Source: Planctomycetota bacterium
GTDB taxonomy: Bacteria; Planctomycetota; MHYJ01; JACPRB01
NCBI GenBank assembly: GCA_016209705.1
Contig: JACQVR010000094.1
Location: 64-64,063 of the forward strand
Direction of reading: 5' to 3'
Length of the DNA: 64,000 nt
The notes below the pieces were generated by a model. That model was not told where the DNA came from and ran no database searches. It was given only the letters and a program-made list of their open reading frames with translations. Position 1 is the first letter of the stretch. Each line of letters opens with the position of its first letter. The translations under genes and the position numbers were made by a program. This document shows, in pieces, positions 24,916 to 63,383 of the stretch.

Positions 24916-24989
24916 TACGCCCGGCAGGAATCGAACCTGCAACCTACTGGTTCGTAGCCAGTCACTCTATCCAATTGAGCTACGGGCGC
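24916..24989 (-). tRNA. tRNA-Arg (anticodon ACG).
   Basis: Sense sequence is GCGCCCGTAGCTCAATTGGATAGAGTGACTGGCTACGAACCAGTAGGTTGCAGGTTCGATTCCTGCCGGGCGTA. It folds as a cloverleaf with anticodon loop CUACGAA and T-loop GGTTCGATTCC. The 1:72 pair is G:U. Confidence 0.85.
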
Positions 24990-29410: not shown

Positions 29411-30400
29411 ATGACCGTCGAAGAACAAGCGCGCCGATTTCGCGAGGGCATCGAGCGGCTCCGCAAGGAGATCGGCAAGGTGATCGTGGGCCACGAGGAC
29501 GTGGTGTCGCAGGCGATCATCACGATCCTGTCCGGGGGCCATGCCCTGCTCGAAGGGGTTCCGGGCATCGGCAAGACGCTGCTGGTGCGCACGATCAGTC
29601 AAAGCCTGAGCCTGCGCTTCTCGCGCATCCAGTTCACGCCCGACCTCATGCCGGCGGACATCCTGGGCACGAACATCGTGGTGGAAGATCCCAGCGGGCG
29701 GAAGAGCTTCCAGTTCCAGAAGGGCCCGATCTTCGGCCATATCATCCTGGCGGACGAGATCAATCGGGCCACGCCCAAGACCCAGTCGGCGTTGCTGGAG
29801 GCGATGCAGGAAAAAGCGGTGACCGTGAGCGGGCAGCGCTATCCCCTGGAGGAACCGTTCTTCGTGCTGGCGACGCAGAACCCCATCGAAATGGAAGGAA
29901 CCTATCCCCTGCCCGAGGCCCAGATCGATCGCTTCTTCTTCAAGATCGAAGTGAAGGCGGCGACGCTGGCCGGGCTGCTGGAGATCATCGATCGCACCAC
30001 CGGCCGCGAGATTCCTTCCATTTCTCCCGTACTGCGCGGGGAGGATATCCTGGCGATGCGCGCGCTGGCGCGCGAGGTTCCCATCGCCTCCCACGTGAAG
30101 GAGTACGCCGCGCGCCTGGTCCTGGCCACGCATCCCACCGAGGGGGGAAGCGACGTAGCCCGCAAGTACGTCCGCTACGGGTCCAGCCCCCGCGGCGTCC
30201 AGGCCCTGGTGCTCGCGGGAAAGATCCTGGCGTTGATGAAAGGACGCTACAACGTGGCCTTCTCGGACATCCGCGAGGCCTCCTACCCCGCCTTAAGACA
30301 CAGATTGATCCTGAACTTCGAAGCGGAGGCCGAAGGCGTCCGGCCCGACCAGATTCTCGGCCGGATCCTCGAAAAGACGCCCGACGCCATCCCGGCCTAG
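29411..30400 (+). CDS. MoxR-family AAA+ ATPase.
   Basis: Walker A GVPGIGKT and Walker B ILADEINRA are present. The size (329 aa) is typical. Confidence 0.85.
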   Translation: MTVEEQARRFREGIERLRKEIGKVIVGHEDVVSQAIITILSGGHALLEGVPGIGKTLLVRTISQSLSLRFSRIQFTPDLMPADILGTNIVVEDPSGRKSFQFQKGPIFGHIILADEINRATPKTQSALLEAMQEKAVTVSGQRYPLEEPFFVLATQNPIEMEGTYPLPEAQIDRFFFKIEVKAATLAGLLEIIDRTTGREIPSISPVLRGEDILAMRALAREVPIASHVKEYAARLVLATHPTEGGSDVARKYVRYGSSPRGVQALVLAGKILALMKGRYNVAFSDIREASYPALRHRLILNFEAEAEGVRPDQILGRILEKTPDAIPA

Positions 30401-30456: not shown

Positions 30457-30539
30457 TATGGTATGTTACATTCCATGTTACGTTTTATTCTCAAAACTTA
30501 TTGTAACGTTACAATATATTTTCAAAATATTTCGTAACA
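30457..30539. promoter_or_regulatory. AT-rich operator cluster A. It holds a perfect palindrome TTGTAACGTTACAA (30501-30514) and arrayed GTTAC/GTAAC half-sites separated by TTTTCAAAA-type cores.
   Basis: An ~85-bp island of >75% AT in a 68% GC genome, immediately upstream of the mscL-like gene and the DUF21-CBS-EIIA gene. The same motif grammar recurs at 34980-35012 and 39185-39280. Confidence 0.5.
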
Positions 30540-30548
30540 GGAGGGAGC

Positions 30549-30815
30549 ATGGAGTTCGACCCGAAGACGCTGGTCAAGACGCCGGCGTTCGCGATCGCCG
30601 GGGGGTTCGTGCTGGGGGCCGCGGTGTTCGAGCTGATTCGGGGCGCGATCAACCATTTGATCGTCCCCTTCTTCAGCATCGTCGGCGACGGCGGGGGAAT
30701 ACGGATCGGCGACAGCATTTACATCGGGTGCGGCGGGTTCATTGGCGCGGTCATGGTGTTCGTGGTCGCGACCGCCGTCGGAGTGCTGATGATCCGGGTC
30801 GCGGCGAAGGATTGA
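30549..30815 (+). CDS. Small MscL-family-like membrane protein (88 aa, lacking the C-terminal cytoplasmic helix).
   Basis: AFAIAGGFVLGAAVFELIRGAINHLIVPFFSIV resembles MscL TM1 and the periplasmic loop. An RBS AGGAGGGAG lies upstream. Confidence 0.5.
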   Translation: MEFDPKTLVKTPAFAIAGGFVLGAAVFELIRGAINHLIVPFFSIVGDGGGIRIGDSIYIGCGGFIGAVMVFVVATAVGVLMIRVAAKD

Positions 30816-30852
30816 CCCCCTCGTCCGCCTCCGATAGCCTTGCCCGCGCTCC

Positions 30853-32424
30853 ATGATTCCCTCCCCGGCCCTATGCGCGCTTTCCGAAGCCGACGGCGCC
30901 TCGTCTTCCTGGCTTCAGCTCCTCTACCTCGCGGCGGCGGGCCTGCTGGTGCTGCTGAACGCGTTTTTCGTTCTCGCGGAGTTCGCCATCGTCAAGATTC
31001 GGGCGACCCAGATGCTCGAACTGGCGGAACGCGGCAACGCGAGAGCCGCGCTCGCCACCTCGATCGTCAAGCGCCTCGACGCCTACCTCTCCACCTGCCA
31101 ACTCGGCATCACCGTCGCGAGCCTGGGGCTGGGGTGGATCGGAGAACCCGCGTTCGCCACGTTGCTGAAACCTTGGTTGGACGCCCTTGGAATCTGGTCC
31201 CGGACGGTGACGACGTCGGTCGCCTTCGCGATCTCGTTCGCATTCGTCACCTTCATCCATGTCGTGATCGGCGAGCTGGCCCCCAAATCGATCGCGATCC
31301 GCCGGACCGAATGGGCCACCCTCTTCGCGGCGCGCCCCCTCCACTGGTTTTACCGGGTCACCTTCCCCGCCATGTGGCTCTTGAACGTGACCAGCAACGC
31401 CGTCCTCCGGCTGCTGCGCATCCCTCCGGTCACCGACATGGAACTGGCTCATTCCGAGGAAGAACTTCGCATGATCCTGGGCGCGTCCCACGAGAAGGGC
31501 GCCGTCACGCTCAATCGCCTGCTCATGATGGAAAACGTCCTCGACTTCGGAACGTTGACCGTGGCGGACGTCATGACGCCGGCCGAGCGGGTGATTTCCC
31601 TGTCCGCGGCCGCGCCGTGGTCGGAAACTTTCGACAAGATCCGGAAATCGCTCCACTCCCGCTATCCCCTGGACTTCGGGACCTCGAAGAAACGGGATCG
31701 CATGATCCATCTCAAAGACCTGCTGATCGCCGTGGCCGCCGGAAAACCGCCGGACTTGACCTCCATCGCCCGTCCGGTGCGCGCCGTCCGTCCCGACCTC
31801 TCCCTCGAGGACCTCCTCCAGCACTTCTATCGGAACCGCAGCCATCTCGCGATGGTGGAGGACGACGCGGGCCGGTTCCTGGGACTGGTCACCATCGAAG
31901 ACGTCATCGAAGAACTGATCGGAACCGTTCGCGACGAATTCGAGACGGTCAAGGAGTTCAATCTCTCCGACTTGGTCCCGCCGGGAGCGATCGCGCTCGG
32001 CCTCGAACCGATGACCAAAGAGCAGTCGATCCGAACCCTGATCGAAAGGCTGGCTCAGAAGCATCCGGAGTTGAACGTCCCGTTGATCGTCTCCACGATC
32101 CTTCGCCGAGAAACGCTCGCATCGACGGGTCTGGGTGAAGGCATCGCCATCCCGCACAGCCGCATTCCAGCCCTCTTGCGTCCGATGGGCGCGATCGGCC
32201 AATGGCCCCAGGGAATCGAATTTCAGGCGCTCGACGCCCACCCCGTCTACTTGATGTTCCTGATCCTGACGCCCGTCCATGACGAGGGCGTCCACGTGCA
32301 CATCCTGGGAAAGATCAGCGCCTTGCTCTCCAGCGATTACCTTCGCGAACGCCTCCGCCACGCCCAAAGCGTCGAGGAGGTACGGGAGGTGTTGCGGATC
32401 TCCGACCAGTCGCTGCCGGCGTGA
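30853..32424 (+). CDS. CNNM/DUF21 membrane domain plus CBS pair fused to a C-terminal PTS EIIA(Ntr/fructose)-type domain.
   Basis: DUF21 TM helices and a CBS pair are followed by GLGEGIAIPHSRIPAL (EIIA active-site His region). This replaces the usual CorC_HlyC terminus. Confidence 0.7.
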   Translation: MIPSPALCALSEADGASSSWLQLLYLAAAGLLVLLNAFFVLAEFAIVKIRATQMLELAERGNARAALATSIVKRLDAYLSTCQLGITVASLGLGWIGEPAFATLLKPWLDALGIWSRTVTTSVAFAISFAFVTFIHVVIGELAPKSIAIRRTEWATLFAARPLHWFYRVTFPAMWLLNVTSNAVLRLLRIPPVTDMELAHSEEELRMILGASHEKGAVTLNRLLMMENVLDFGTLTVADVMTPAERVISLSAAAPWSETFDKIRKSLHSRYPLDFGTSKKRDRMIHLKDLLIAVAAGKPPDLTSIARPVRAVRPDLSLEDLLQHFYRNRSHLAMVEDDAGRFLGLVTIEDVIEELIGTVRDEFETVKEFNLSDLVPPGAIALGLEPMTKEQSIRTLIERLAQKHPELNVPLIVSTILRRETLASTGLGEGIAIPHSRIPALLRPMGAIGQWPQGIEFQALDAHPVYLMFLILTPVHDEGVHVHILGKISALLSSDYLRERLRHAQSVEEVREVLRISDQSLPA

Positions 32425-32428
32425 CGCT

Positions 32429-32803
32429 TCAGAAGAGATCCTTGGCCGCCGCGGCGCACAGTGCCGCGCCGATCAGGTAGACCGCCGCGCCGACGAGCAG
32501 GACGGCGCGACCGAGTCCCAAAACGTCGGAGCGAAAAAGGCCGGCCGCCAGGAAGGCCGCGCCGGTCGCGGCGAAGACGACTTGACTGATCGCCCACCGG
32601 CGGAGGGTGAGTTCCTGCGACAGCGCCTCGACTCCGTAGCCGATGAACGCGAGGCCGCCGGCCAGGATCGCCGCGATCTTCAACCACCACGGCAGCGTCT
32701 CCGCGGGCACGTTCCATAACAGGGCCCCGGCCGCCAGGACCAGTCCGAACCAACACACGGCGGCCGTGACGGACGTGGCTCGATCCGCGTCGCGAAAGGA
32801 CAT
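32429..32803 (-). CDS. Small hypothetical membrane protein (4 predicted TM segments).
   Basis: The ORF is hydrophobic and 124 aa long. No recognisable motif was found. Confidence 0.45.
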   Translation of the reverse strand: MSFRDADRATSVTAAVCWFGLVLAAGALLWNVPAETLPWWLKIAAILAGGLAFIGYGVEALSQELTLRRWAISQVVFAATGAAFLAAGLFRSDVLGLGRAVLLVGAAVYLIGAALCAAAAKDLF

Positions 32804-32924: not shown

Positions 32925-34037
32925 ATGGGACTATCCGACGACAACGTGCTTCAACCGCTGAACGCCGCGAATCGCAGGCAGAAGAAAGCGCTCTTTCGGC
33001 AACCCGTCCGGCCCCTCGCCCTGCGCCCGAACACCACCGTCGCCGACCTGGTCGAGGGCATGGCGGGCATGTCCATCCAGGCGCGCAACATCGGGCAGTG
33101 CGCGCAGGTCCTCGAGCGCATGCTCAAAGACCCGGCTCGCCCGACGGTTTTTCTCGGACTGGCTGGTCCGTTGATCGCGGCGGGCCTGCGCAAAGTCATC
33201 CGCGACCTCATCGAAGCGGGCGTCGTGGACGTCGTCGTCTCCACCGGCGCGATCTTGTATCAGGATATTTATCAGGCGCGCGGCTTCCGCCATTATCAGG
33301 GCGACGTGGATGCGGACGATTCGGCGTTGCGCGATCTGTACATCGACCGCATCTACGATACCTACGTCGACGAGGAGAAATTCTGGGATACCGACGTGTG
33401 GTGCGGGGAGCTGGCGAACGAGCTCCCGCCCGGCCCTACCTCCAGCCGGGCGTATCTGGATTTCGTCGCGTCGCGCCTTGAGGACGATGAGTCGATTCTG
33501 GTCACCTGCCGGAAGCACGGCGTCCCGGTTTTCTGCCCCGCGCTCAACGACAGTTCGATCGGCATCGGACTCACCCACCACCGCCATCTCGCGCATCGGG
33601 AAGGCCGCACGCCGCTGGCGATCGACTCGATCCGCGACAACTACGAGCTGACCCAGATCGTCGTGCAATCGAACATGACGTCCGCCATCTACATCGCCGG
33701 AGGCGTTCCCAAGAACTACATCAACGACTCCGTGGTCATGAGCTACATCTTCGGCCTGGAGCGCGGCCATGAATACGCGGTTCAAGTGACCACGGCCGTG
33801 ACCGCGGACGGCGGGCTGTCCAGCTCGACACTTTCCGAAGCCCGCTCGTGGGGCAAGATCAAGAAGGAAGCCAAGTTCGCGATGGCGTGGGTCGAGCCCA
33901 GCGTCGCCTTGCCGCTGCTGGCGGGCTATGTGCTCCAGCGGAACCTGGCGAAGGGGCGCGGCCGGCTGCACCTCACGTGGGACGGCGAGATCCTCCGCGA
34001 GTTGCGCGCGGACCCGCGAAAGCACCGCGGCCGCTGA
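32925..34037 (+). CDS. Deoxyhypusine synthase-like (homospermidine-synthase-related) protein.
   Basis: DHS-family signature segments are present (GLAGPLIAAGLR, VSTGAILYQD, IAGGVPKNY). ATG at 32925 lies within track ORF 32643. Confidence 0.75.
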   Translation: MGLSDDNVLQPLNAANRRQKKALFRQPVRPLALRPNTTVADLVEGMAGMSIQARNIGQCAQVLERMLKDPARPTVFLGLAGPLIAAGLRKVIRDLIEAGVVDVVVSTGAILYQDIYQARGFRHYQGDVDADDSALRDLYIDRIYDTYVDEEKFWDTDVWCGELANELPPGPTSSRAYLDFVASRLEDDESILVTCRKHGVPVFCPALNDSSIGIGLTHHRHLAHREGRTPLAIDSIRDNYELTQIVVQSNMTSAIYIAGGVPKNYINDSVVMSYIFGLERGHEYAVQVTTAVTADGGLSSSTLSEARSWGKIKKEAKFAMAWVEPSVALPLLAGYVLQRNLAKGRGRLHLTWDGEILRELRADPRKHRGR

Positions 34038-34045
34038 ACCTTCGA

Positions 34046-34990
34046 ATGGCCAGAAAGACGCGATTCCTGAACATCCTCGTCACCGGCGGCGCCGGATTCA
34101 TCGGATCCAACCTCGTCCAGGCGATCCAGGCCCGCTGGCCGTCGGCCCTGCTGACCGTGGTCGACGACTTTCGCTCGGGACACTTCAAGAATCTCACCGG
34201 CTTCCGCGGAGACGTGGTGGCAGCGGACATCGGAGCCTGGGAGTCGTCCGAGAAATACGACTGCATCTTCCATCTGGCCTCGATCACCGACACCACGATC
34301 AGCGATCAATTCCGGATGGTGCGGGACAATGTGGAAGGCTTCCGCAGCGTCTTGAGGATGGCCCGCAGAATGAAGGCGATCGTGGTGTACGCCTCCAGCG
34401 CCGCGACGTACGGGCAGGCGAACGAGCGCGCGTTGGAAACGTCTCCCGCCCTTCCGACGACCGCGTACGCGTTTTCGAAGGTCGTCCTGGATCACCTGGC
34501 GGAGCGCGCGCGCTGGGACGGAATGCGCGTCGAGGGGGTTCGGTACTTCAACGTCTACGGCCCCCACGAGGCGCACAAGGGGGCGGCGGCCAGCATGATC
34601 TATCAGCTCGCCGCGCAGATGCGGAAGGACCGCCGGCCGCGAATCTTCAAGCACGGCGAGCAGCGGCGCGATTTCATCTTCGTGGACGACGCCGTGCATG
34701 CCACGCTCCTGGCGGCCGAGCGTGGAAAGAACGCCGTCTACAACGTCGGCACCGGACGCGCCCGGTCGTTCAACGAAGTCATCGACGCGCTGAACTCGGC
34801 CCTGGGAACGCGCCTGGAGCCGGAGTACTTCGACAATCCCTACGATTTCTATCAGGACTACACCGAAGCCAACATCGCCCGGGCCCGCGCCGACCTCGGC
34901 TTCACCGCCGCCTTCGGCCTCGAAGACGGAGTGCGCGAATACCTCCAGCGCCTCGGATGGACGCGCGCCGCCCATCGCCTGTTACAATAA
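34046..34990 (+). CDS. NAD-dependent epimerase/dehydratase (HldD/ADP-heptose-6-epimerase-like SDR).
   Basis: Rossmann motif ILVTGGAGFIGSNL is present, with YAFSK in the catalytic YxxxK position. Confidence 0.8.
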   Translation: MARKTRFLNILVTGGAGFIGSNLVQAIQARWPSALLTVVDDFRSGHFKNLTGFRGDVVAADIGAWESSEKYDCIFHLASITDTTISDQFRMVRDNVEGFRSVLRMARRMKAIVVYASSAATYGQANERALETSPALPTTAYAFSKVVLDHLAERARWDGMRVEGVRYFNVYGPHEAHKGAAASMIYQLAAQMRKDRRPRIFKHGEQRRDFIFVDDAVHATLLAAERGKNAVYNVGTGRARSFNEVIDALNSALGTRLEPEYFDNPYDFYQDYTEANIARARADLGFTAAFGLEDGVREYLQRLGWTRAAHRLLQ

Positions 34991-35012
34991 GTTTTGAAAA
35001 TTATTTGTAACA
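34980..35012. promoter_or_regulatory. AT-rich operator B. It is one GTTACA-N22-TGTAACA dyad with a TTTTGAAAA core, overlapping the epimerase stop and directly upstream of selenoprotein candidate 3.
   Basis: Sequence is TGTTACAATAAGTTTTGAAAATTATTTGTAACA. It follows the same grammar as operator clusters A and C. Confidence 0.45.
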
Positions 35013-39184: not shown

Positions 39185-39280
39185 TGTTACAAAACATTTT
39201 CAAAATATATCGTAACGTTACAATATATTTTGAAAACTATTTGTAACTGTTACATAAAGTTCTCAAAACTTATTGTAACG
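39185..39280. promoter_or_regulatory. AT-rich operator cluster C. Three consecutive GTTAC-N19/20-GTAAC dyads including TCGTAACGTTACAA, in the divergent region between the E1 fusion gene and trpD.
   Basis: Sequence is TGTTACAAAACATTTTCAAAATATATCGTAACGTTACAATATATTTTGAAAACTATTTGTAACTGTTACATAAAGTTCTCAAAACTTATTGTAACG. A TTGACA -35 box follows at 39282. Confidence 0.5.
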
Positions 39281-43759: not shown

Positions 43760-44197
43760 ATGTTTGAGATGCGTGGCAACGGGCGAGAAGAGAAGCCTCC
43801 CTCGTGGGCTCGAAGTCTTTCCGCCGAAATGCGCGCTTACCTCCGGCACGGCTCCGAGGAAGCGGCAAGGAATCGGAAGGAGGCGCAAAAGGATCGGCAG
43901 GAAATGCGGGCCTATTTCCAGAAAGTAATCGAGAAGGCCGATGCGGATCGGCGGGAAACGCGGGAGTACTTCCAGAAAGTGATCGCGAATGCTGAAGCGG
44001 ACCGGAAGGAAATGCGGGCCTTCTTCCAAACCGTGGCCGCGCAGGCGGCGGACGACCGCGCGGACTTCAAGGCGGATCGGGCCAACTTCGCCAAGCTCAC
44101 CGCGATGGTCGTTAAGATCGGCAACGAGATCATCAGGCGGCTCGAAGATATCCAGCGAACGCTCTACATCCAAGGCAACGGGCGTAGGAATAGGTAA
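43760..44197 (+). CDS. Hypothetical repeat protein. It has 3 copies of an ~19-aa EMRAYFQKVIxxAxADRxE unit plus a C-terminal module DFKADRANFAKL...IQGNGRRNR that is duplicated at 50410-50549.
   Basis: Internal periodicity is clear. The C-terminal 46 aa are ~80% identical (about 75% at DNA level) to the tail of ORF 50247..50549. Confidence 0.5.
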   Translation: MFEMRGNGREEKPPSWARSLSAEMRAYLRHGSEEAARNRKEAQKDRQEMRAYFQKVIEKADADRRETREYFQKVIANAEADRKEMRAFFQTVAAQAADDRADFKADRANFAKLTAMVVKIGNEIIRRLEDIQRTLYIQGNGRRNR

Positions 44198-50250: not shown

Positions 50251-50549
50251 GAGGGGGCATAGGATACTCCAGCTACGATATACGGCTGCGTGCGGTCAGC
50301 GCAGTGCAGCGAGGTACGGGGATCTGCGTCGTGGCGGAGGCTTTTGGCACAAATCGCTCGACGCTCCATCGGTGGATACAGCGTTATCAATGGGAAAATG
50401 AAGCCGATCGAGAAGATTTCAAAAAAGATCGGGCCAACTTTGCCAAGCTCATGGCCGTGGCGCTCAGGACCGGGAACGAGATCATCCGCCGGCTCGACAA
50501 CATCCAGCACACCCTCCGCATCCAAGGCAATGGGCGCAAGAATCGATAG
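50247..50549 (+). mobile_element. IS630-family transposase N-terminal HTH fragment fused to a copy of the DRANFAKL...IQGNGRKNR module.
   Basis: YDIRLRAVSAVQRGTGICVVAEAFGTNRSTLHRWIQRY resembles the IS630/Tc1 HTH. No DDE domain follows. Instead the tail matches the C-terminus of ORF 43760..44197. Confidence 0.45.
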
Positions 50550-54671: not shown

Positions 54672-54719
54672 AAACGACGAATAGCTGAAGATTAATCCCG
54701 GTTTCTATGCTACACACTC
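54672..54719. repeat. 48-bp exact direct repeat, copy A (AAACGACGAATAGCTGAAGATTAATCCCGGTTTCTATGCTACACACTC).
   Basis: It is identical to 56016-56063. It lies at the outer edge of the ISL3 remnant and forms the C-terminal tail of the truncated sigma gene. Confidence 0.6.
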
Positions 54720-56015: not shown

Positions 56016-56063
56016 AAACGACGAATAGCTGAAGATTAATCCCGGTTTCTATGCTACACACTC
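56016..56063. repeat. 48-bp exact direct repeat, copy B. It supplies the last 4 codons and the stop of the M48 protease gene.
   Basis: It is identical to 54672-54719. The minus-strand reading GAG TGT GTA GCA TAG within the repeat ends ORF 56049..57419. Confidence 0.6.
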
Positions 56064-57419
56064 AACAACGTCGATCTTTTGCCCGCAGCGGTCGCAGCGG
56101 ACGAAAGGCGCCTTGAACTTCGGGCTCAAGTGCTTCACGGCGCCGCAGGCGCACTTGAACGACTCCCAACCGTGGGACGACCTCTCGTAGCGAAGGATGG
56201 GAACGGACGGCGCTTCGGGGGCGGGGACGGGTTGCGCGGAGGGAACCGCGCGGGTGCGGCCGCAGCGAGGGCACGGGATTCCCTCCCTTTTCATCTCGGC
56301 GGGAACTTTGATTTTCACCCCGCAGGCGCAGGTCAGCAGCACCAGCCCGTTCAACCGGCCCAGGAGGTCGTGCACTTCTTCGGCGCGCCGAACCGCCTCT
56401 TCGCGGGACTCCCGATCCACGGAGGGAGCGCGCACCGGGACGGGCGTGTCCTTGGACAGCGTCGTTTCATCGAGGCAGGGACGTTTCCCGCCTCGGACGC
56501 GCCGGAAGGCCTCCTCGTAGGCGGAATACCCGGCGCCGGCCATCCCGCGAAGGATCTTCACGCGCTCCTCCGTGGGCGGATGGGTGGAAAAAAGCTGGAA
56601 GGATGCCAGGGATTGCAAAGGGTTGATGATGTACATCGGCGCCAGAACCCGGCTGGCCCCGCCTACCGCACTCGCGCCCGCCGCGATCTTCTCCAGCGCG
56701 GATGCCAATCCTTCCGGATAGCGCGTGAATCGCGCGGCGCACGCGTCCGCCAGATGCTCCCGCCGGCGGGAACACGCCAAATACAAAAGGCGGGCGAAGA
56801 ACGGAGCCAGAATCGCCGCCGCCAGCGCGGCCAGGAAGACCGCCGCGTGGCCGCCTCGCGAGGAGCGCCGGCGTCCGCCTCCCCACCACGCCACTCGCAG
56901 GACCGCCTCCGACAGAAGCACGATCGCGCCCAGCATCACCCCGGCCAAGGTCATGAACGACGAGTCTCGATTGCGGATATGTCCGATCTCGTGCCCGATC
57001 ACTCCCTGCAATTCGTCCCGACTGAGCCGCTCCAGCAAACCCGACGTCACGGCCACGCTGCGGCGCCGGCCCCGTTCCACGGCGAACGCGTTCGGTCCGG
57101 GGTCCCAGATCAGGTAGACGTCCGGAGGGCCGCCCAGTCCGGACGCGATCGACATCTCTTCCACGATGTTCCAGAGCTGGGGCGCGTCCTCCTTCCCGAT
57201 GCGCTGCGCCCCGGCCGTCATCAGCAGCACTCGATCGCCTTCGATCGTCGCTCCGAACCACAGCACGAGCCACAGGCCGGACGCCGCCAGCATTCCGAGC
57301 CACCCGGCCTCCGGAGCCACCGCGGAACCCACCAGAAAACCGAAGCCAAGAAGGATCGCTCCCATGCATCCGACAAGCACCCAGGAGCGGCGGCGGTTTC
57401 GACGGATGGCGGCCCACAT
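56049..57419 (-). CDS. M48 family (HtpX-like) zinc metalloprotease with a C-terminal double zinc-ribbon domain.
   Basis: The HEIGHIRNRD (HExxH) motif is present along with TM segments. The C-terminus reads CACGVKIKV...CPRCG...CACG...CDRCGQ. The antisense ORF 56079..57467 is artefact. Confidence 0.8.
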   Translation of the reverse strand: MWAAIRRNRRRSWVLVGCMGAILLGFGFLVGSAVAPEAGWLGMLAASGLWLVLWFGATIEGDRVLLMTAGAQRIGKEDAPQLWNIVEEMSIASGLGGPPDVYLIWDPGPNAFAVERGRRRSVAVTSGLLERLSRDELQGVIGHEIGHIRNRDSSFMTLAGVMLGAIVLLSEAVLRVAWWGGGRRRSSRGGHAAVFLAALAAAILAPFFARLLYLACSRRREHLADACAARFTRYPEGLASALEKIAAGASAVGGASRVLAPMYIINPLQSLASFQLFSTHPPTEERVKILRGMAGAGYSAYEEAFRRVRGGKRPCLDETTLSKDTPVPVRAPSVDRESREEAVRRAEEVHDLLGRLNGLVLLTCACGVKIKVPAEMKREGIPCPRCGRTRAVPSAQPVPAPEAPSVPILRYERSSHGWESFKCACGAVKHLSPKFKAPFVRCDRCGQKIDVVECVA

Positions 57420-57421
57420 AA

Positions 57422-57463
57422 GAGTCCCGAGTCCCGAGTCGCGAGTCCTGAGTCACGAGTCGC
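57422..57463. repeat. Tandem heptanucleotide repeat (GAGTCNC) x6 in the lemA-M48 intergenic region.
   Basis: Units are GAGTCCC GAGTCCC GAGTCGC GAGTCCT GAGTCAC GAGTCGC. The unit length is not a multiple of 3, and every unit contains GANTC. Confidence 0.7.
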
Positions 57464-61031: not shown

Positions 61032-63383
61032 ATGGGCGGCACGCGGACCCGTGCGGAAGCGGCGGGGATTTTCCTGCTCAGCGCCGCCTGTCTGTTCTTC
61101 GAGCTCCACGCGTTCCGATTCTTCACGCTTTCCCAATGGCACCATTTTGGAGCGCTCGTCGTTTCGCTGGCGCTCTTCGGCGGCGCGGCGGCGGGTGTCG
61201 CCCTCGCGCTGTCGAGGCGCCTTCGGCGGGCGGATCCCGGGACCGCTGCGGCGACATGCGCCGTCGCCATGGCGGTCTCCGCGTGGGCTGGCCTGCACGC
61301 CGCTTCCTGGATCCCTTTCCGTCCGGTTCGCGCCTCGGTGGGACCGGAAGAACTGGCGGCGGTGGCGGGATGGTATCTATGTTTCGGCGTCCCGATGTTC
61401 TTCGCCTCGTTGGGCGTGCTGTACTTCCTGCTCAGGCGTCCCGGGAACGTGGGGACGATCTATGCGTCCAATCTTCTCGGCGGGGCGGCGGGCGTAGCGT
61501 CGGCCCTTTGGCTGGAAAGCGCCCTCGACGGGCAGGAAGCGGCGGCAACGGCCGTTTTGGGCCTCTGCGCCGCCACGTGCTTCGTTCATCTTTCCCCGTG
61601 GCGGATCGGCGGCGCGTCCGTTTTCTTGCTGCTCGCCGCCTGGATGCGTCCCGAGATCCCGGTATCCGAATTCAAGGCCCTGGCGAGCCTGCCGAATACG
61701 CTGGGAGCGCGCAGCGTTCATTCTGGTCGTGCCGAAGGACATCACGTGGCGTTGTTGAAGGTTCCCACGTTTCGGCGCGCGCCGGGACTCTCGCTGGCCT
61801 ATCGTGGAAGGGTTCCGACCGGTCTGACCGTCGTGGTGGACGGCGATCGTCCCGATGTGCTTCTCGAACCGCCCGTGGATCCGGATCTGCCGGCCCATCT
61901 GCCGGGAGCCGTCGGCCACGAGCTGGCCCCCGAAGGGCGAGCTTTGATCCTGGACGCGGCGGGGAATCTGCCGGTCCTGACCGCCAACCGATATGGGAGA
62001 TCTTCGCTGGTGCATCTCCCTCCCGAAATCGCGGGCGTTTGGTTCGACGTTCAGGGCTTGGATGCCCGCCGATATTTCCCGGGGGCGACGGTGGTGACGG
62101 TTCCTCCGAGAACGCTGCTGCGGGCCCAACCCGACGGCTCGGTTGCGTATGTGGAGATCGCCTTGCGTGACGGCGCGGCCACCATGACGGCCGCTCTGGG
62201 ACAGCCGACCGAAGGCTATCTGTTCACGGTGGAAGCGTGGAGGGAAATGCTGAGGTGTCTGGCTCCGGACGGCCTCTTGTGCGTGACGCGATGGCTCGAA
62301 TTTCCTCCGCGCGAAAGCTTGCGGCTGGCCGCGACCGCCGTCGAGGCGTTGAAAGAAGGCGCTCCGGCGGAGCGCTGCCTCGTGGCGTTTCGGTCGCTCC
62401 AGACGATCACCTTTCTAATCAGGCCTCGAGGATTCGATCCAGCTTCGCGCCGACGGTTGGCCGAAGCGCTGCGAAGGCGATCCTACGAATTGATCTATCC
62501 TGCGGGAGGAGGCGGAGTTCATGCCGCCGCCCTCGATGCGTTGCTGCGCGATCCGGAGAAGTTGTACGCTTCCTATCCCTTCTACATACGTCCCGCGACG
62601 GATGACCGGCCCTTCCCATGGTTTTTCCTCAAGCCGGGACGACTGGGCGAGTTGCGCGAACGGGCGGACATCGGCTGGCGCCCCCTGCTGGACGGGGGGT
62701 TTCTTTTGGGAGCCGCGGCGGTGCAGGCGGCCTTCATCGGCTTGATCTTGATCGCGCTTCCCTTTCTGCGAGCGCGCGATCGGCCTCCCGTATCGTCGGC
62801 GGTCGCGCCCGGAATCTACTTCTTCTTGATCGGCCTCGGATTTCTATTCGTTGAAATCCCTCTCGCGCAAATCTTGACGCGATCGGCGCCTTCGGCCGCG
62901 CATGCGTTCGGACTCGTGATCGCGACCATGTTCCTGGGCGCCGGCACCGGTTCCTACTTGTCCGGACGTCTGAGACTGGATCGTGTGGCCGTCGTCGTGG
63001 CCGCCGCCGCGCTGGTGATCGGTGCGCAGTGTGCCTTGTTGCCGCGGATCGGGACGTGGACGCTGGTTCCGGGAGGGTGGTGGATGGTTGGATCCCTTCT
63101 GGGCGCGCTTCCCTCCGTGGCCATGGGCATGGCCATGCCGGGAGGATTTCGCTGGGCGGGGCCGCTCGGCTCTTGGGGACCTTCCTGGGGATGGGCGGTC
63201 AATGGATGCGCCTCGGTGGTTTCGCCGCTTTTGGCGTCGATCCTGGCACTCGGCGTCGGGTTCCGTTTTGTGCTCGGCGTGGCGGCGGTCCTATACGTTA
63301 CCGCCGGAGGAATGCTTTATTTCAAGTCCCGAGTCGTGAGTCCGGAGTCCCGAGTCGAAGACGAGCTATCGCCTTCTTCATGA
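61032..63383 (+). CDS. Polytopic membrane protein with a spermidine/spermine-synthase-like (aminopropyltransferase) domain.
   Basis: N-terminal TM helices are followed by a central methyltransferase-like fold (LLCVTRWLEFPPRESL) and C-terminal TM helices. The extreme C-terminus overlaps GAGTC heptamer repeats and may terminate earlier. Confidence 0.55.
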   Translation: MGGTRTRAEAAGIFLLSAACLFFELHAFRFFTLSQWHHFGALVVSLALFGGAAAGVALALSRRLRRADPGTAAATCAVAMAVSAWAGLHAASWIPFRPVRASVGPEELAAVAGWYLCFGVPMFFASLGVLYFLLRRPGNVGTIYASNLLGGAAGVASALWLESALDGQEAAATAVLGLCAATCFVHLSPWRIGGASVFLLLAAWMRPEIPVSEFKALASLPNTLGARSVHSGRAEGHHVALLKVPTFRRAPGLSLAYRGRVPTGLTVVVDGDRPDVLLEPPVDPDLPAHLPGAVGHELAPEGRALILDAAGNLPVLTANRYGRSSLVHLPPEIAGVWFDVQGLDARRYFPGATVVTVPPRTLLRAQPDGSVAYVEIALRDGAATMTAALGQPTEGYLFTVEAWREMLRCLAPDGLLCVTRWLEFPPRESLRLAATAVEALKEGAPAERCLVAFRSLQTITFLIRPRGFDPASRRRLAEALRRRSYELIYPAGGGGVHAAALDALLRDPEKLYASYPFYIRPATDDRPFPWFFLKPGRLGELRERADIGWRPLLDGGFLLGAAAVQAAFIGLILIALPFLRARDRPPVSSAVAPGIYFFLIGLGFLFVEIPLAQILTRSAPSAAHAFGLVIATMFLGAGTGSYLSGRLRLDRVAVVVAAAALVIGAQCALLPRIGTWTLVPGGWWMVGSLLGALPSVAMGMAMPGGFRWAGPLGSWGPSWGWAVNGCASVVSPLLASILALGVGFRFVLGVAAVLYVTAGGMLYFKSRVVSPESRVEDELSPSS

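What the first reader, a model, noticed from the sequence alone, without database searches (positions are those of the whole stretch)
30549..32424. rpoN neighbourhood carries a DUF21-CBS transporter fused to a PTS EIIA(Ntr)-like domain
ptsN (EIIA-Ntr) typically lies downstream of rpoN. Here an EIIA-type domain, with the GIAIPH active-site His context, is instead fused to the C-terminus of a CNNM/CorC-like DUF21-CBS membrane protein. It is preceded by a truncated MscL-like gene and by operator cluster A. This could couple PTS-Ntr phosphorylation state to divalent-cation or osmolyte transport.
Basis: partly seen in the sequence, partly recalled or inferred. Interest (0 to 1): 0.5.

Follow-up and report, generated by a model that had tools for sequence, protein, structure and literature searches.

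The report
CNNM cation transporter with PtsN-like tail
A membrane cation transporter of the CNNM/CorB family has swapped its usual C-terminal domain for a PtsN-like PTS EIIA domain with an invariant phosphorylatable histidine, which suggests, but does not prove, that the cell's PTS phosphorylation state directly controls cation export.

Summary
ORF 30853-32424 (523 aa) is one protein. It has a DUF21/CNNM membrane domain (Pfam 2.4e-48), a CBS pair, and a C-terminal PTS_EIIA_2 domain (7e-25) that is closest to PtsN in both sequence and predicted fold.

It is not an artefact. At least 138 full-length homologues share this architecture, in Planctomycetota, Elusimicrobiota, Spirochaetota and Myxococcota MAGs. 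They form one clade within CNNM proteins. Their nearest relatives carry CorC_HlyC where these carry EIIA.

The PtsN His73 and Arg57 equivalents (H435, R419) are invariant in 138/138 sequences. Phosphorylation of H435 by HPr/NPr is therefore the most likely control mechanism. It is unproven: no HPr, EI or HprK gene lies in the window or within 10 kb in 22 related loci, and the rest of the genome could not be searched.

The rpoN proximity holds only in the closest relatives. No sigma-54 promoter lies upstream.

The 88-aa upstream ORF is a weak but consistent remote MscL-core homologue. "Operator cluster A" is real: it is an array of GTTAC-N21-GTAAC palindromes, also found at two other promoter regions in the window.

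No paper describing this fusion was found. I rate it a new variant of a known kind, of moderate interest.

The parts
30463..30540 (.). AT-rich palindromic repeat array ('operator cluster A'). It holds two head-to-tail GTTAC-N21-GTAAC units (30477-30507 and 30508-30538), which share the TTGTAACGTTACAA junction. Two extra ATGTTAC half-sites lie at 30463 and 30475.
   Evidence: The window holds six exact units against 0.24 expected by chance. The array is absent from the syntenic relatives L001, L002 and L008.
30488..30515 (+). Sigma-70-like promoter candidate, TTCTCA-16-TACAAT. It overlaps the palindrome junction.
   Evidence: 1 site found against 0.2 expected. This is a consensus match only.
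30549..30815 (+). orf88, a small two-TM membrane protein and remote homologue of the MscL TM1-loop-TM2 core. It is probably co-transcribed with the fusion gene: the gap is 37 nt here and 18 nt in L001.
   Evidence: NCBI names it hypothetical protein HY716_12115.
30853..32424 (+). The CNNM(DUF21)-CBS-EIIA fusion gene, 523 aa.
30943..31506 (+). DUF21/CNNM transmembrane domain (residues 31-218). It includes the invariant TM3 motif G140-E141-x-x-P144-K145.
31555..31932 (+). CBS-pair (Bateman) domain, residues about 235-360. The counterparts of the MtCorB Mg-ATP contacts are conserved: S269, R270, T347, D350.
31933..31983 (+). Junction and linker (residues 361-377). It begins with the invariant D361-E362-F363 motif shared with the non-fused relatives. 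CorC_HlyC follows this motif in those relatives; EIIA follows it here.
   Evidence: (pLDDT 67-71 in the linker).
31984..32394 (+). PtsN-like PTS_EIIA_2 domain, residues 378-514.
32155..32157 (+). Codon of His435, equivalent to the E. coli PtsN phosphorylation site His73. It is invariant in 138/138 family members.

Best explanation
The gene encodes a CNNM/CorB-type secondary cation transporter. It has a three-TM DUF21 domain with the conserved GExxPK pi-helix motif, an acidic helical bundle and an Mg-ATP-sensing CBS pair. The usual prokaryotic C-terminal CorC_HlyC domain has been replaced, immediately after the conserved DEF motif, by a PtsN-like EIIA domain.

The most likely mechanism is as follows. 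A regulatory PTS phosphoryl chain (EI to HPr/NPr) reversibly phosphorylates His435 of the tethered EIIA domain. The phosphorylation state changes how EIIA packs against the CBS-pair dimer. That in turn opens or closes cation efflux through the DUF21 domain; the cation is most probably Mg2+ or a related di- or polycation. The protein would then combine two cytoplasmic signals in one polypeptide: Mg-ATP through the CBS pair, and the PEP/carbon-nitrogen state through EIIA.

What is shown: the architecture, the fold, a single origin for the fusion, conservation of the catalytic His and Arg, and conservation of the ATP-site residues.

What is inferred: that phosphorylation occurs, the direction of its effect, and the substrate.
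For: 1. All three domains are significant. The model is confident (pLDDT 88.3), and its EIIA domain matches PtsN structures at TMt of about 0.9.
2. The 120 best database homologues, down to 39% identity, carry the same architecture, apart from about four truncated entries that cover only part of the query. In genome contigs the full-length fusions occur in Planctomycetota, Elusimicrobiota, Spirochaetia and Myxococcota MAGs.
3. In a neighbour-joining tree built on the TM+CBS part alone, 53 fused sequences form one clade that excludes all 65 non-fused relatives. Three nearest non-fused relatives tested (Bacillus, Burkholderia, Acidobacteriota) carry CorC_HlyC after the same DEF(D/E) motif.
4. 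H435 (PtsN H73) and R419 (PtsN R57) are invariant in 138/138 sequences, and R437 in 137/138. Mean pairwise identity of the EIIA domain (0.40) equals that of the CBS pair (0.405), so EIIA is under comparable constraint.
5. The counterparts of MtCorB ATP-site residues S234/R235, T313 and D316 are kept: S269 (124 Ser, 14 Thr), R270 (138/138), T347 (106 Thr, 31 Ser) and D350 (135/138). G140, E141 and P144 are 138/138 and K145 is 135/138.
6. Published precedents exist. Unphosphorylated PtsN binds and inhibits the K+/H+ antiporter YcgO through YcgO's CorC_HlyC domain (PMC11808508). HPr phosphorylates the IIA-Glc-like domain fused to LacS to tune transport (PMC10710835). Planctomycetes carry a regulatory EI chain but no PTS permeases (PMC2405797).
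Against: - No HPr, NPr, EI, HprK or free PtsN gene is in the 64-kb window. None lies within 10 kb of the fusion in 22 related loci. The rest of the genome could not be searched, so the phosphodonor is unverified.
- The second His of PtsN (H120) is His in only 71 of 138 sequences and Gln in 67.
- Two of the three side-chain ligands of the MtCorB Mg2+ site are hydrophobic here: S25 becomes V40 and S71 becomes I86. The third, S21, becomes N36. V40 and I86 are also present in the seven non-fused relatives inspected, three of which were checked and carry CorC_HlyC. This bears on the substrate of the whole subfamily, not of the fusion specifically.
- The best curated equivalog is the polyamine exporter PaeA, but far below its cut-off (139 against 500 bits). 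The substrate is therefore open.
- pTM is only 0.54, so the model does not define how the domains pack against each other.
Confidence: 0.55

Rival explanations
1. The EIIA domain is a phosphorylation-independent module. It would replace CorC_HlyC as a dimerisation, docking or ligand-binding domain. The conserved His and Arg would then serve structure or ligand binding, not phosphotransfer from a PTS chain.
For: No PTS gene is linked to the fusion in any of the 23 loci examined. The H120-equivalent position is His or Gln in roughly equal numbers. The domain scores below the PtsN equivalog cut-off. In E. coli it is the unphosphorylated form of PtsN that is active in binding transporters (PMC11808508).
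Against: Absolute invariance of H435, R419 and R437 across sequences only about 40% identical is the signature of a retained phosphoryl-acceptor site. Regulatory EI/HPr chains without permeases are reported for Planctomycetes and a spirochaete, Leptospira interrogans (PMC2405797).
Confidence: 0.2
2. Signal flows the other way. The membrane protein would act as a sensor ('transceptor'). Its cation- or Mg-ATP-dependent conformation would control access of HPr~P to the tethered EIIA domain. It would thereby drain or spare the PTS phosphoryl pool and report cation status to other PTS targets.
For: The protein combines an Mg-ATP-sensing CBS pair with a phospho-acceptor domain. No partner gene is conserved, so a stand-alone role is possible.
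Against: The transport motifs of the DUF21 domain (E43, G140-E141-x-x-P144) are invariant, which argues that transport is retained. A single membrane-tethered acceptor with no onward phosphoryl sink would be a poor drain. No precedent was found in the papers searched.
Confidence: 0.1
3. The fusion functionally replaces the rpoN-linked ptsN of Proteobacteria and belongs to the sigma-54 regulon or operon. On this view its position after rpoN is the meaningful feature.
For: The gene order rpoN-moxR-(orf88)-fusion is kept in the window, L001, L002 and L008. rpoN-moxR lies within 5 kb of the fusion in L003. In L001 the spacers are short (40 and 18 nt), which is compatible with read-through from moxR.
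Against: rpoN is absent within 10 kb in the other 18 fusion loci. No sigma-54 -24/-12 match lies upstream of orf88 or the fusion. In the window the operon has its own AT-rich promoter-like region.
Confidence: 0.1
4. The fusion is an assembly or frameshift artefact of this MAG that joins two separate genes.
For: The source is a metagenome-assembled genome.
Against: The ORF is a single uninterrupted 1572-nt reading frame. The same architecture appears in more than 130 independent sequences from different samples, assemblers and phyla. The junction motif and linker length are conserved.
Confidence: 0.01

Closest known systems
Prokaryotic CNNM/CorB/CorC-type transporters (DUF21-CBS-CorC_HlyC), e.g. 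MtCorB (PDB 7m1t) and TpCorC. The Mg2+ exporter MpfA is included from my own knowledge and was not tested here.
   Same: DUF21 TM domain (E=8e-24 to 7m1t), acidic helical bundle and CBS pair. The invariant GExxPK pi-helix motif and conserved Mg-ATP contact residues are present. The TM1/TM2 signature N-[AG]-F-F-V-x-x-E-F and Q-L-G-I-T is shared with relatives in Bacillales, Burkholderia, Acidobacteriota and Verrucomicrobiota; three of these were tested and carry CorC_HlyC.
   Different: The C-terminal CorC_HlyC domain is absent and replaced by PTS_EIIA_2. The Mg2+-site serines of MtCorB (S21, S25, S71) are N36, V40 and I86 here. Neither the substrate nor transport itself has been tested.
PtsN / EIIA-Ntr (E. 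coli 1a6j, Neisseria 2a0j, Burkholderia 3urr and 4gqx)
   Same: Same fold (TMt about 0.9, rmsd 1.5-2.9 A) at 28-32% identity in the Foldseek structural alignments and 37.5% by tblastn to E. coli PtsN. Same GIAIPH active-site context. The H73 and R57 equivalents are invariant. PtsN regulates cation transporters: YcgO (PMC11808508), plus TrkA and KdpD from my own knowledge.
   Different: It is not a free ~160-aa protein but the C-terminal domain of a membrane transporter. It scores below the TIGR01419 cut-off (77.7 against 138.7 bits). The H120 equivalent is only half conserved. Linkage to rpoN is confined to one clade.
LacS lactose transporter with a fused IIA-Glc-like domain (Streptococcus thermophilus and lactobacilli)
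   Same: A secondary transporter carrying a C-terminal PTS IIA domain that HPr(His~P) phosphorylates to modulate transport (PMC10710835). This is the same design logic.
   Different: Unrelated transporter family (GPH) and an unrelated IIA superfamily (IIA-Glc, not the fructose/mannitol/Ntr type). The substrate is a sugar, not a cation.
YcgO (CvrA) K+/H+ antiporter regulated in trans by PtsN
   Same: It links an EIIA-Ntr protein to the cytoplasmic regulatory tail of a cation transporter. The docking site there is a CorC_HlyC domain, the very domain that EIIA replaces here (PMC11808508).
   Different: In YcgO the interaction is between separate proteins and the transporter belongs to CPA1. Here EIIA is covalently attached to a CNNM transporter that lacks CorC_HlyC.
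MscL (comparison for orf88 only)
   Same: The alignment is collinear over TM1-loop-TM2. hhalign gives 78% probability (E=1.8e-5). S. aureus MscL 3hzq is the best PDB profile hit (E=0.022).
   Different: orf88 is 88 aa against about 120-150 aa for MscL. It lacks the C-terminal helical bundle. Its Pfam score is 14 bits against a 27.4 cut-off. It belongs to a small family of 86-90-aa proteins.

Membership tests
CNNM/CorB (DUF21-CBS) transporter family | DUF21/CNNM transmembrane domain | tested here: met
   Pfam PF01595, E=2.4e-48, 164.6 bits against a cut-off of 28.4. MtCorB 7m1t, E=8e-24. Foldseek against 7m1t, E=2.9e-18.
CNNM/CorB (DUF21-CBS) transporter family | Conserved pi-helix motif G-E-x-x-P-K in TM3 | tested here: met
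   G140, E141 and P144 are invariant in 138/138; K145 in 135/138. The motif is defined in PMC8242095.
CNNM/CorB (DUF21-CBS) transporter family | CBS-pair domain with Mg-ATP contact residues | tested here: met
   Pfam CBS, E=1.6e-11. CBS-pair structures match at TMt 0.8-0.9. S269, R270, T347 and D350 correspond to MtCorB S234, R235, T313 and D316 and are conserved. ATP binding itself was not tested.
CNNM/CorB (DUF21-CBS) transporter family | Mg2+-coordinating side chains of the TM cavity (MtCorB S21, S25, S71 or Asn, E111) | tested here: inconclusive
   E141 is kept, but S21, S25 and S71 correspond to N36, V40 and I86. V40 and I86 are also present in the non-fused relatives inspected.
CNNM/CorB (DUF21-CBS) transporter family | Prokaryotic C-terminal CorC_HlyC domain | tested here: not met
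   No PF03471 hit. PTS_EIIA_2 occupies that position. Three nearest non-fused relatives tested have CorC_HlyC.
CNNM/CorB (DUF21-CBS) transporter family | Mg2+ (or other cation) transport activity | not testable with these tools
   Requires liposome flux assays or complementation assays.
PtsN / EIIA-Ntr (PTS_EIIA_2 superfamily) | PTS_EIIA_2 fold and profile match | tested here: met
   PF00359, E=7.1e-25. PtsN structures match at TMt about 0.9, rmsd 1.5-2.9 A.
PtsN / EIIA-Ntr (PTS_EIIA_2 superfamily) | Phosphorylatable active-site His (PtsN H73) and the conserved Arg (R57) | tested here: met
   H435 and R419 are present and invariant in 138/138.
PtsN / EIIA-Ntr (PTS_EIIA_2 superfamily) | Equivalog-level score to PtsN (TIGR01419 or NF008145) | tested here: not met
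   77.7 bits against a cut-off of 138.7, and 71.6 against 221. PtsN is still the best-scoring IIA subfamily.
PtsN / EIIA-Ntr (PTS_EIIA_2 superfamily) | Free-standing ~150-160-aa protein encoded in the rpoN cluster | tested here: not met
   It is the C-terminal domain of a 523-aa membrane protein. rpoN linkage holds in only 5 of 23 loci.
PtsN / EIIA-Ntr (PTS_EIIA_2 superfamily) | Phosphorylation by NPr/HPr, and presence of EI and HPr in the same genome | not testable with these tools
   None found in the window or in the 10-kb flanks of 22 loci. The literature reports a regulatory EI chain in Planctomycetes (PMC2405797).
MscL (for orf88) | Match to the MscL profile above the curated threshold | tested here: not met
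   PF01741, 14 bits against 27.4, E=0.067.
MscL (for orf88) | Remote homology of the TM1-loop-TM2 core | tested here: inconclusive
   Four of 8 family members hit MscL, best E=3.5e-6. hhalign gives 78% probability, E=1.8e-5. The PDB profile search puts 3hzq MscL first at E=0.022.
MscL (for orf88) | C-terminal cytoplasmic helical bundle | tested here: not met
   The protein ends about 5 residues after TM2. All family members are 86-90 aa long.

The most novel reading that the evidence does not exclude
The fusion acts as a 'Rosetta stone'. On this reading, the regulatory PTS (PTS-Ntr-like) directly gates Mg2+ or polycation efflux by CNNM/CorB proteins, and the fused protein combines a PEP-derived signal with Mg-ATP in one polypeptide. 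The same PtsN-CNNM connection would then operate in trans in bacteria that have a free PtsN. That would extend PtsN's known K+ targets (TrkA, KdpD, YcgO) to Mg2+ homeostasis, and it would suggest that CorC_HlyC domains are general PtsN docking modules.
Probability: 0.3. Interest if true: 0.65.

Novelty: new variant of a known kind. Interest (0 to 1): 0.45.

Why it matters
CNNM/CorB proteins are conserved from archaea to humans, and how their transport is regulated is still being worked out. The physiological outputs of PTS-Ntr are also only partly known.

A natural, monophyletic family found in several phyla has a PtsN-like domain with an invariant phospho-acceptor His covalently attached to a CNNM core. 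This gives a concrete, testable prediction: PTS phosphorylation state controls cation efflux.

A 2024 paper found that free PtsN docks on the CorC_HlyC domain of a K+/H+ antiporter. Taken with that, the fusion points to a broader link between EIIA-Ntr and the regulatory tails of cation transporters.

The protein is already in public databases under generic names such as 'DUF21 domain-containing protein'. It occurs only in uncultured lineages among the 15 fusion-bearing genomes retrieved, so its value is as a lead for heterologous biochemistry rather than as a new class of system.

Tried and rejected
1. PTS partners. tblastn of E. coli and B. subtilis HPr, NPr, EI, HprK and PtsN found only the fusion's own EIIA domain in the window. 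A weak NPr hit at 1816-1911 (E=0.011) falls inside a 382-aa ORF, 1339-2487, that is far too long to be an HPr. phmmer against six-frame ORFs of all 88 sources found no HPr, EI or HprK near any fusion.

2. Extending beyond the window with the look-up of encoding contigs failed. Neither ORF 1339-2487 nor P0001 is on record. The afdb50 library was unavailable.

3. A search with the EIIA domain alone returned only 11 hits: fragments, free EIIA proteins and HTH_17+EIIA proteins. It gave no survey of other architectures.

4. Conserved neighbours. All-against-all clustering of ORFs within 5 kb in 23 loci found shared families only inside the closest clade.

5. A polyamine-export reading was considered, for three reasons. 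PaeA is the best NCBIfam hit. A deoxyhypusine-synthase-like gene lies next door in the window and in L001. An ornithine decarboxylase gene lies next to the fusion in L006. I rejected it as unsupported: PaeA scores 139 against a 500-bit cut-off, and the neighbours are inconsistent (CorA in L003, unrelated genes elsewhere).

6. I first took the loss of the MtCorB Mg2+-site serines as evidence against Mg2+ transport. I dropped this because the non-fused relatives inspected show the same V and I residues.

7. No sigma-54 promoter lies near the operon. Rfam finds no riboswitch or other RNA family upstream.

8. Literature searches for DUF21 or CNNM or CBS together with EIIA or PTS_EIIA_2 found no paper describing this architecture. 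Barabote and Saier 2005 (PMC1306802) is not held in the library.
Full report
**1. What is at the coordinates**

The finding covers two ORFs on the + strand, exactly as stated: an 88-aa ORF (30549-30815) and a 523-aa ORF (30853-32424). Upstream, on the same strand, lie dnaX, ybaB, recR, rpoN (TIGR02395, 364 bits) and a MoxR-type AAA_3 ATPase gene (29411-30400).

Pfam places three domains on the 523-aa protein:
- CNNM/DUF21, residues 31-218, E=2.4e-48
- CBS, residues 306-356, E=1.6e-11
- PTS_EIIA_2, residues 378-514, E=7.1e-25

The GIAIPH motif is real; His435 is the codon at 32155-32157.

**2. The three modules**

- *TM and CBS region.* Against PDB sequences, it is closest to the archaeal Mg2+ transporter MtCorB (7m1t, E=8e-24).
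- *C-terminal domain.* It is closest to E. coli PtsN (1a6j, E=2.8e-18). Other PtsN proteins follow, and IIA-Mtl is well behind (E=1.1e-10). NCBIfam agrees: PtsN TIGR01419 is the best IIA model at 77.7 bits, although that is below its 138.7-bit equivalog cut-off. tblastn of E. coli PtsN gives 37.5% identity over 120 residues.
- *Predicted structure.* An AlphaFold2 model built on a 60-sequence family alignment has a mean pLDDT of 88.3. It shows the expected layout: three long TM helices, juxtamembrane helices, a helical bundle, a CBS pair, a flexible linker of about 15 residues, and an alpha/beta EIIA domain.
- *Structure matches.* Foldseek matches the model to MtCorB, to many CBS-pair structures, and to four PtsN crystal structures at target TM-scores of 0.85-0.91 and rmsd of 1.5-2.9 A. 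pTM is only 0.54, so the relative placement of the domains is not defined.

**3. Is the fusion real, and how common is it?**

The 120 best database homologues, down to 39% identity, carry the same CNNM+CBS+PTS_EIIA_2 architecture, apart from about four truncated entries that cover only part of the query. They come from NCBI, JGI, ENA and Logan assemblies. Sources name them generically ('DUF21 domain-containing protein', 'CNNM domain-containing protein'), and JGI sometimes names both halves. The exact protein is in NCBI from a Planctomycetes MAG.

In one-genome-per-species GTDB contigs, the full-length fusions (L008-L022) are all MAGs of Planctomycetota, Elusimicrobiota, Spirochaetia and Myxococcota. 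No cultured isolate appeared among them.

The same DUF21 subtype (motifs N-[AG]-FFVLAEF and LGLGW-GEP) also occurs in Bacillales, Burkholderia, Acidobacteriota and Verrucomicrobiota. There the match stops at about residue 364. The three proteins of this group that were tested carry CorC_HlyC directly after the shared DEF(D/E) motif.

A neighbour-joining tree on the TM+CBS part alone puts all 53 sampled fused sequences in one clade that excludes all 65 non-fused ones. The simplest reading is a single domain replacement, CorC_HlyC to EIIA, followed by spread across phyla. An assembly artefact is excluded.

**4. Is the EIIA domain likely to be phosphorylated?**

In an alignment of 138 fused sequences:
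- H435 (PtsN H73) and R419 (PtsN R57) are invariant.
- R437 is conserved in 137/138, and A432 and P434 in 134/138 each.
- The PtsN H120 equivalent is His in 71 sequences and Gln in 67.

Mean pairwise identity of the EIIA domain (0.40) equals that of the CBS pair (0.405), so the domain is not decaying. This is the pattern expected for a functional phosphoryl acceptor that does not need to pass the phosphate on to a IIB domain.

The donor could not be verified. The window holds no HPr, NPr, EI, HprK or free PtsN gene. None lies within 10 kb of the fusion in 22 related loci. The rest of the genome was out of reach. Published comparative work reports a regulatory EI ('group R') chain in Planctomycetes and in the spirochaete Leptospira interrogans, organisms that lack PTS permeases (PMC2405797). 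A donor is therefore plausible.

**5. The transporter part**

- *TM3 motif.* G140, E141 and P144 are invariant and K145 is conserved in 135/138. This motif is functionally essential in TtCorB (PMC8242095).
- *Mg-ATP site.* The counterparts of the MtCorB contacts (S234/R235, T313, D316) are conserved as S269/R270, T347 and D350.
- *Mg2+ site.* The three serine ligands of MtCorB (S21, S25, S71) correspond to N36, V40 and I86. V40 and I86 are the same in the non-fused relatives inspected. They characterise the subfamily rather than the fusion.
- *Best curated model.* This is the polyamine exporter PaeA, at 139 bits against a 500-bit cut-off.

I therefore call the protein a CNNM-type cation exporter. 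Mg2+ is the most likely substrate, and polyamines or other cations remain possible.

**6. Genomic context**

The order dnaX-ybaB-recR-rpoN-moxR-orf88-fusion is kept in relatives at about 68-70% identity (L001, L002, L008). A 58% relative (L003) has rpoN-moxR, then a methyltransferase gene, a CorA gene and an unknown gene before the fusion. In the other 18 loci rpoN is absent within 10 kb and the neighbours are unrelated. Clustering of all neighbouring ORFs finds no family shared outside the close clade. No sigma-54 promoter match lies upstream, and no Rfam family matches the leader. The rpoN proximity is thus a clade-specific gene order, not a property of the family.

**7. orf88**

orf88 is found only in the window, L001, L002 and L008. 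An exhaustive search finds six further representatives of 86-90 aa. Evidence for a link to MscL:
- Pfam MscL is sub-threshold for this ORF (E=0.067).
- MscL is the family hit by the most members: 4 of 8, tied with DUF2243, but with the better best E-value of 3.5e-6.
- S. aureus MscL is the top PDB hit for the family profile (E=0.022).
- hhalign against an MscL alignment gives 78% probability over TM1-loop-TM2.

'Truncated MscL-like' is a fair but unproven description. The C-terminal bundle is absent.

**8. The upstream repeats**

The 148-nt spacer between moxR and orf88 is AT-rich. It contains two head-to-tail palindromic units, GTTAC-N21-GTAAC, plus two extra ATGTTAC half-sites. A sigma-70-like TTCTCA-16-TACAAT promoter candidate overlaps the junction.

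The window holds six exact units against 0.24 expected by chance. The others are:
- one unit at 34981-35011, upstream of a HEAT-repeat gene;
- three units at 39186-39279, between a fused E1 alpha/beta dehydrogenase gene and trpDCFBA.

The units are absent from the syntenic relatives, where the spacer is only 40 nt. They look like operator arrays for an unidentified DNA-binding protein, or like a genome-specific promoter-associated repeat. The functionally mixed set of genes they precede argues against a regulator dedicated to cation transport.

**9. Mechanism and comparison with known systems**

The best-supported model is a CNNM exporter whose CBS-pair gate is modulated by the phosphorylation state of a tethered PtsN-like domain.

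- *Functional precedent 1.* HPr-dependent phosphorylation of the IIA-Glc-like domain fused to LacS tunes lactose transport (PMC10710835).
- *Functional precedent 2.* Unphosphorylated PtsN inhibits the K+/H+ antiporter YcgO by binding its CorC_HlyC domain (PMC11808508). That is the domain EIIA replaces here.
- *Membership in the CNNM/CorB family.* This holds for the core but fails on the C-terminal domain.
- *Membership in PtsN.* This holds for the fold and catalytic residues. It fails on equivalog score, free-standing form and general rpoN linkage.

No paper describing the architecture was found.

**10. Verdict**

This is a new variant of known kinds: a CNNM transporter and a PTS-IIA-regulated transporter. 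It is already present but unremarked in databases. Interest is moderate (0.45).

The most novel reading not excluded is that the regulatory PTS gates Mg2+ or polycation efflux through CNNM proteins generally, with this fusion as the Rosetta stone (probability about 0.3).

Noticed in passing
window 30477-30538, 34981-35011, 39186-39279: There are six exact AT-rich palindromic units, GTTAC-N21-GTAAC, each with an inner TTTTCAAAA or TTTTGAAAA core. They have a 31-nt period and neighbouring units share a GTAAC|GTTAC junction. Only 0.24 would be expected by chance. They sit in three promoter regions: upstream of orf88 and the fusion; upstream of a HEAT-repeat secreted protein gene; and between a fused E1 alpha/beta 2-oxoacid dehydrogenase gene (- strand) and trpDCFBA (+ strand). 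They are absent from the syntenic relatives. As RNA, the 30470-30560 stretch folds with z=-4.4.
   Followed up: partly
L088 8001-11467 (GCA_964411985.1 contig CAYPNF010000011.1): The free EIIA paralogues closest to the fusion's EIIA domain carry an HTH_17 domain fused to PTS_EIIA_2 (about 235 aa). At least one sits inside a cluster resembling Mrp or complex I (Proton_antipo_M, NADHdh and Complex1_49kDa genes), alongside a second weak PTS_EIIA_2 gene. This may be another link between EIIA-like domains and ion-translocating membrane machinery.
   Followed up: no
L011 17489-20033 and L016 18650-21197: In two Spirochaetia MAGs the fusion gene lies 7-9 kb upstream of dnaX-ybaB-recR. That is the same trio that precedes rpoN and the fusion in the window. 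This could be coincidence or a remnant of shared gene order.
   Followed up: no
L003 3253-4215 and L006 6394-7614: A CorA Mg2+ channel gene lies two genes upstream of the fusion in L003. An ornithine/arginine decarboxylase gene lies divergently upstream in L006. The window and L001 have a deoxyhypusine-synthase-like gene nearby (window 32925-34037). These are hints towards Mg2+ or polyamine homeostasis, but they are inconsistent from locus to locus.
   Followed up: partly
window 54672-54719 and 56016-56063: Two 100%-identical 48-nt direct repeats lie 1344 nt apart in a region of lower GC content. They may flank a duplicated or mobile segment.
   Followed up: no
window 43878-44039, 44053-44196 and 50405-50548: Three tandem 54-nt (18-codon) repeats are followed by a 144-nt segment. 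That segment recurs at 75% identity 6.3 kb downstream.
   Followed up: no
window 57416-57462 and 63325-63357: Runs of a heptamer-like repeat (GAGTCNC, as in AGTCCCGAGTCGCGAGTCC) occur at two sites about 5.9 kb apart.
   Followed up: no
window 32429-32803 (- strand): A 124-aa predicted membrane protein with no Pfam or NCBIfam match is conserved in L001 and L002. It lies between the fusion gene and the deoxyhypusine-synthase-like gene.
   Followed up: no
window 24916-24989 (- strand): A single tRNA gene lies just upstream of dnaX. It is the only Rfam gathering-level hit in the window.
   Followed up: no
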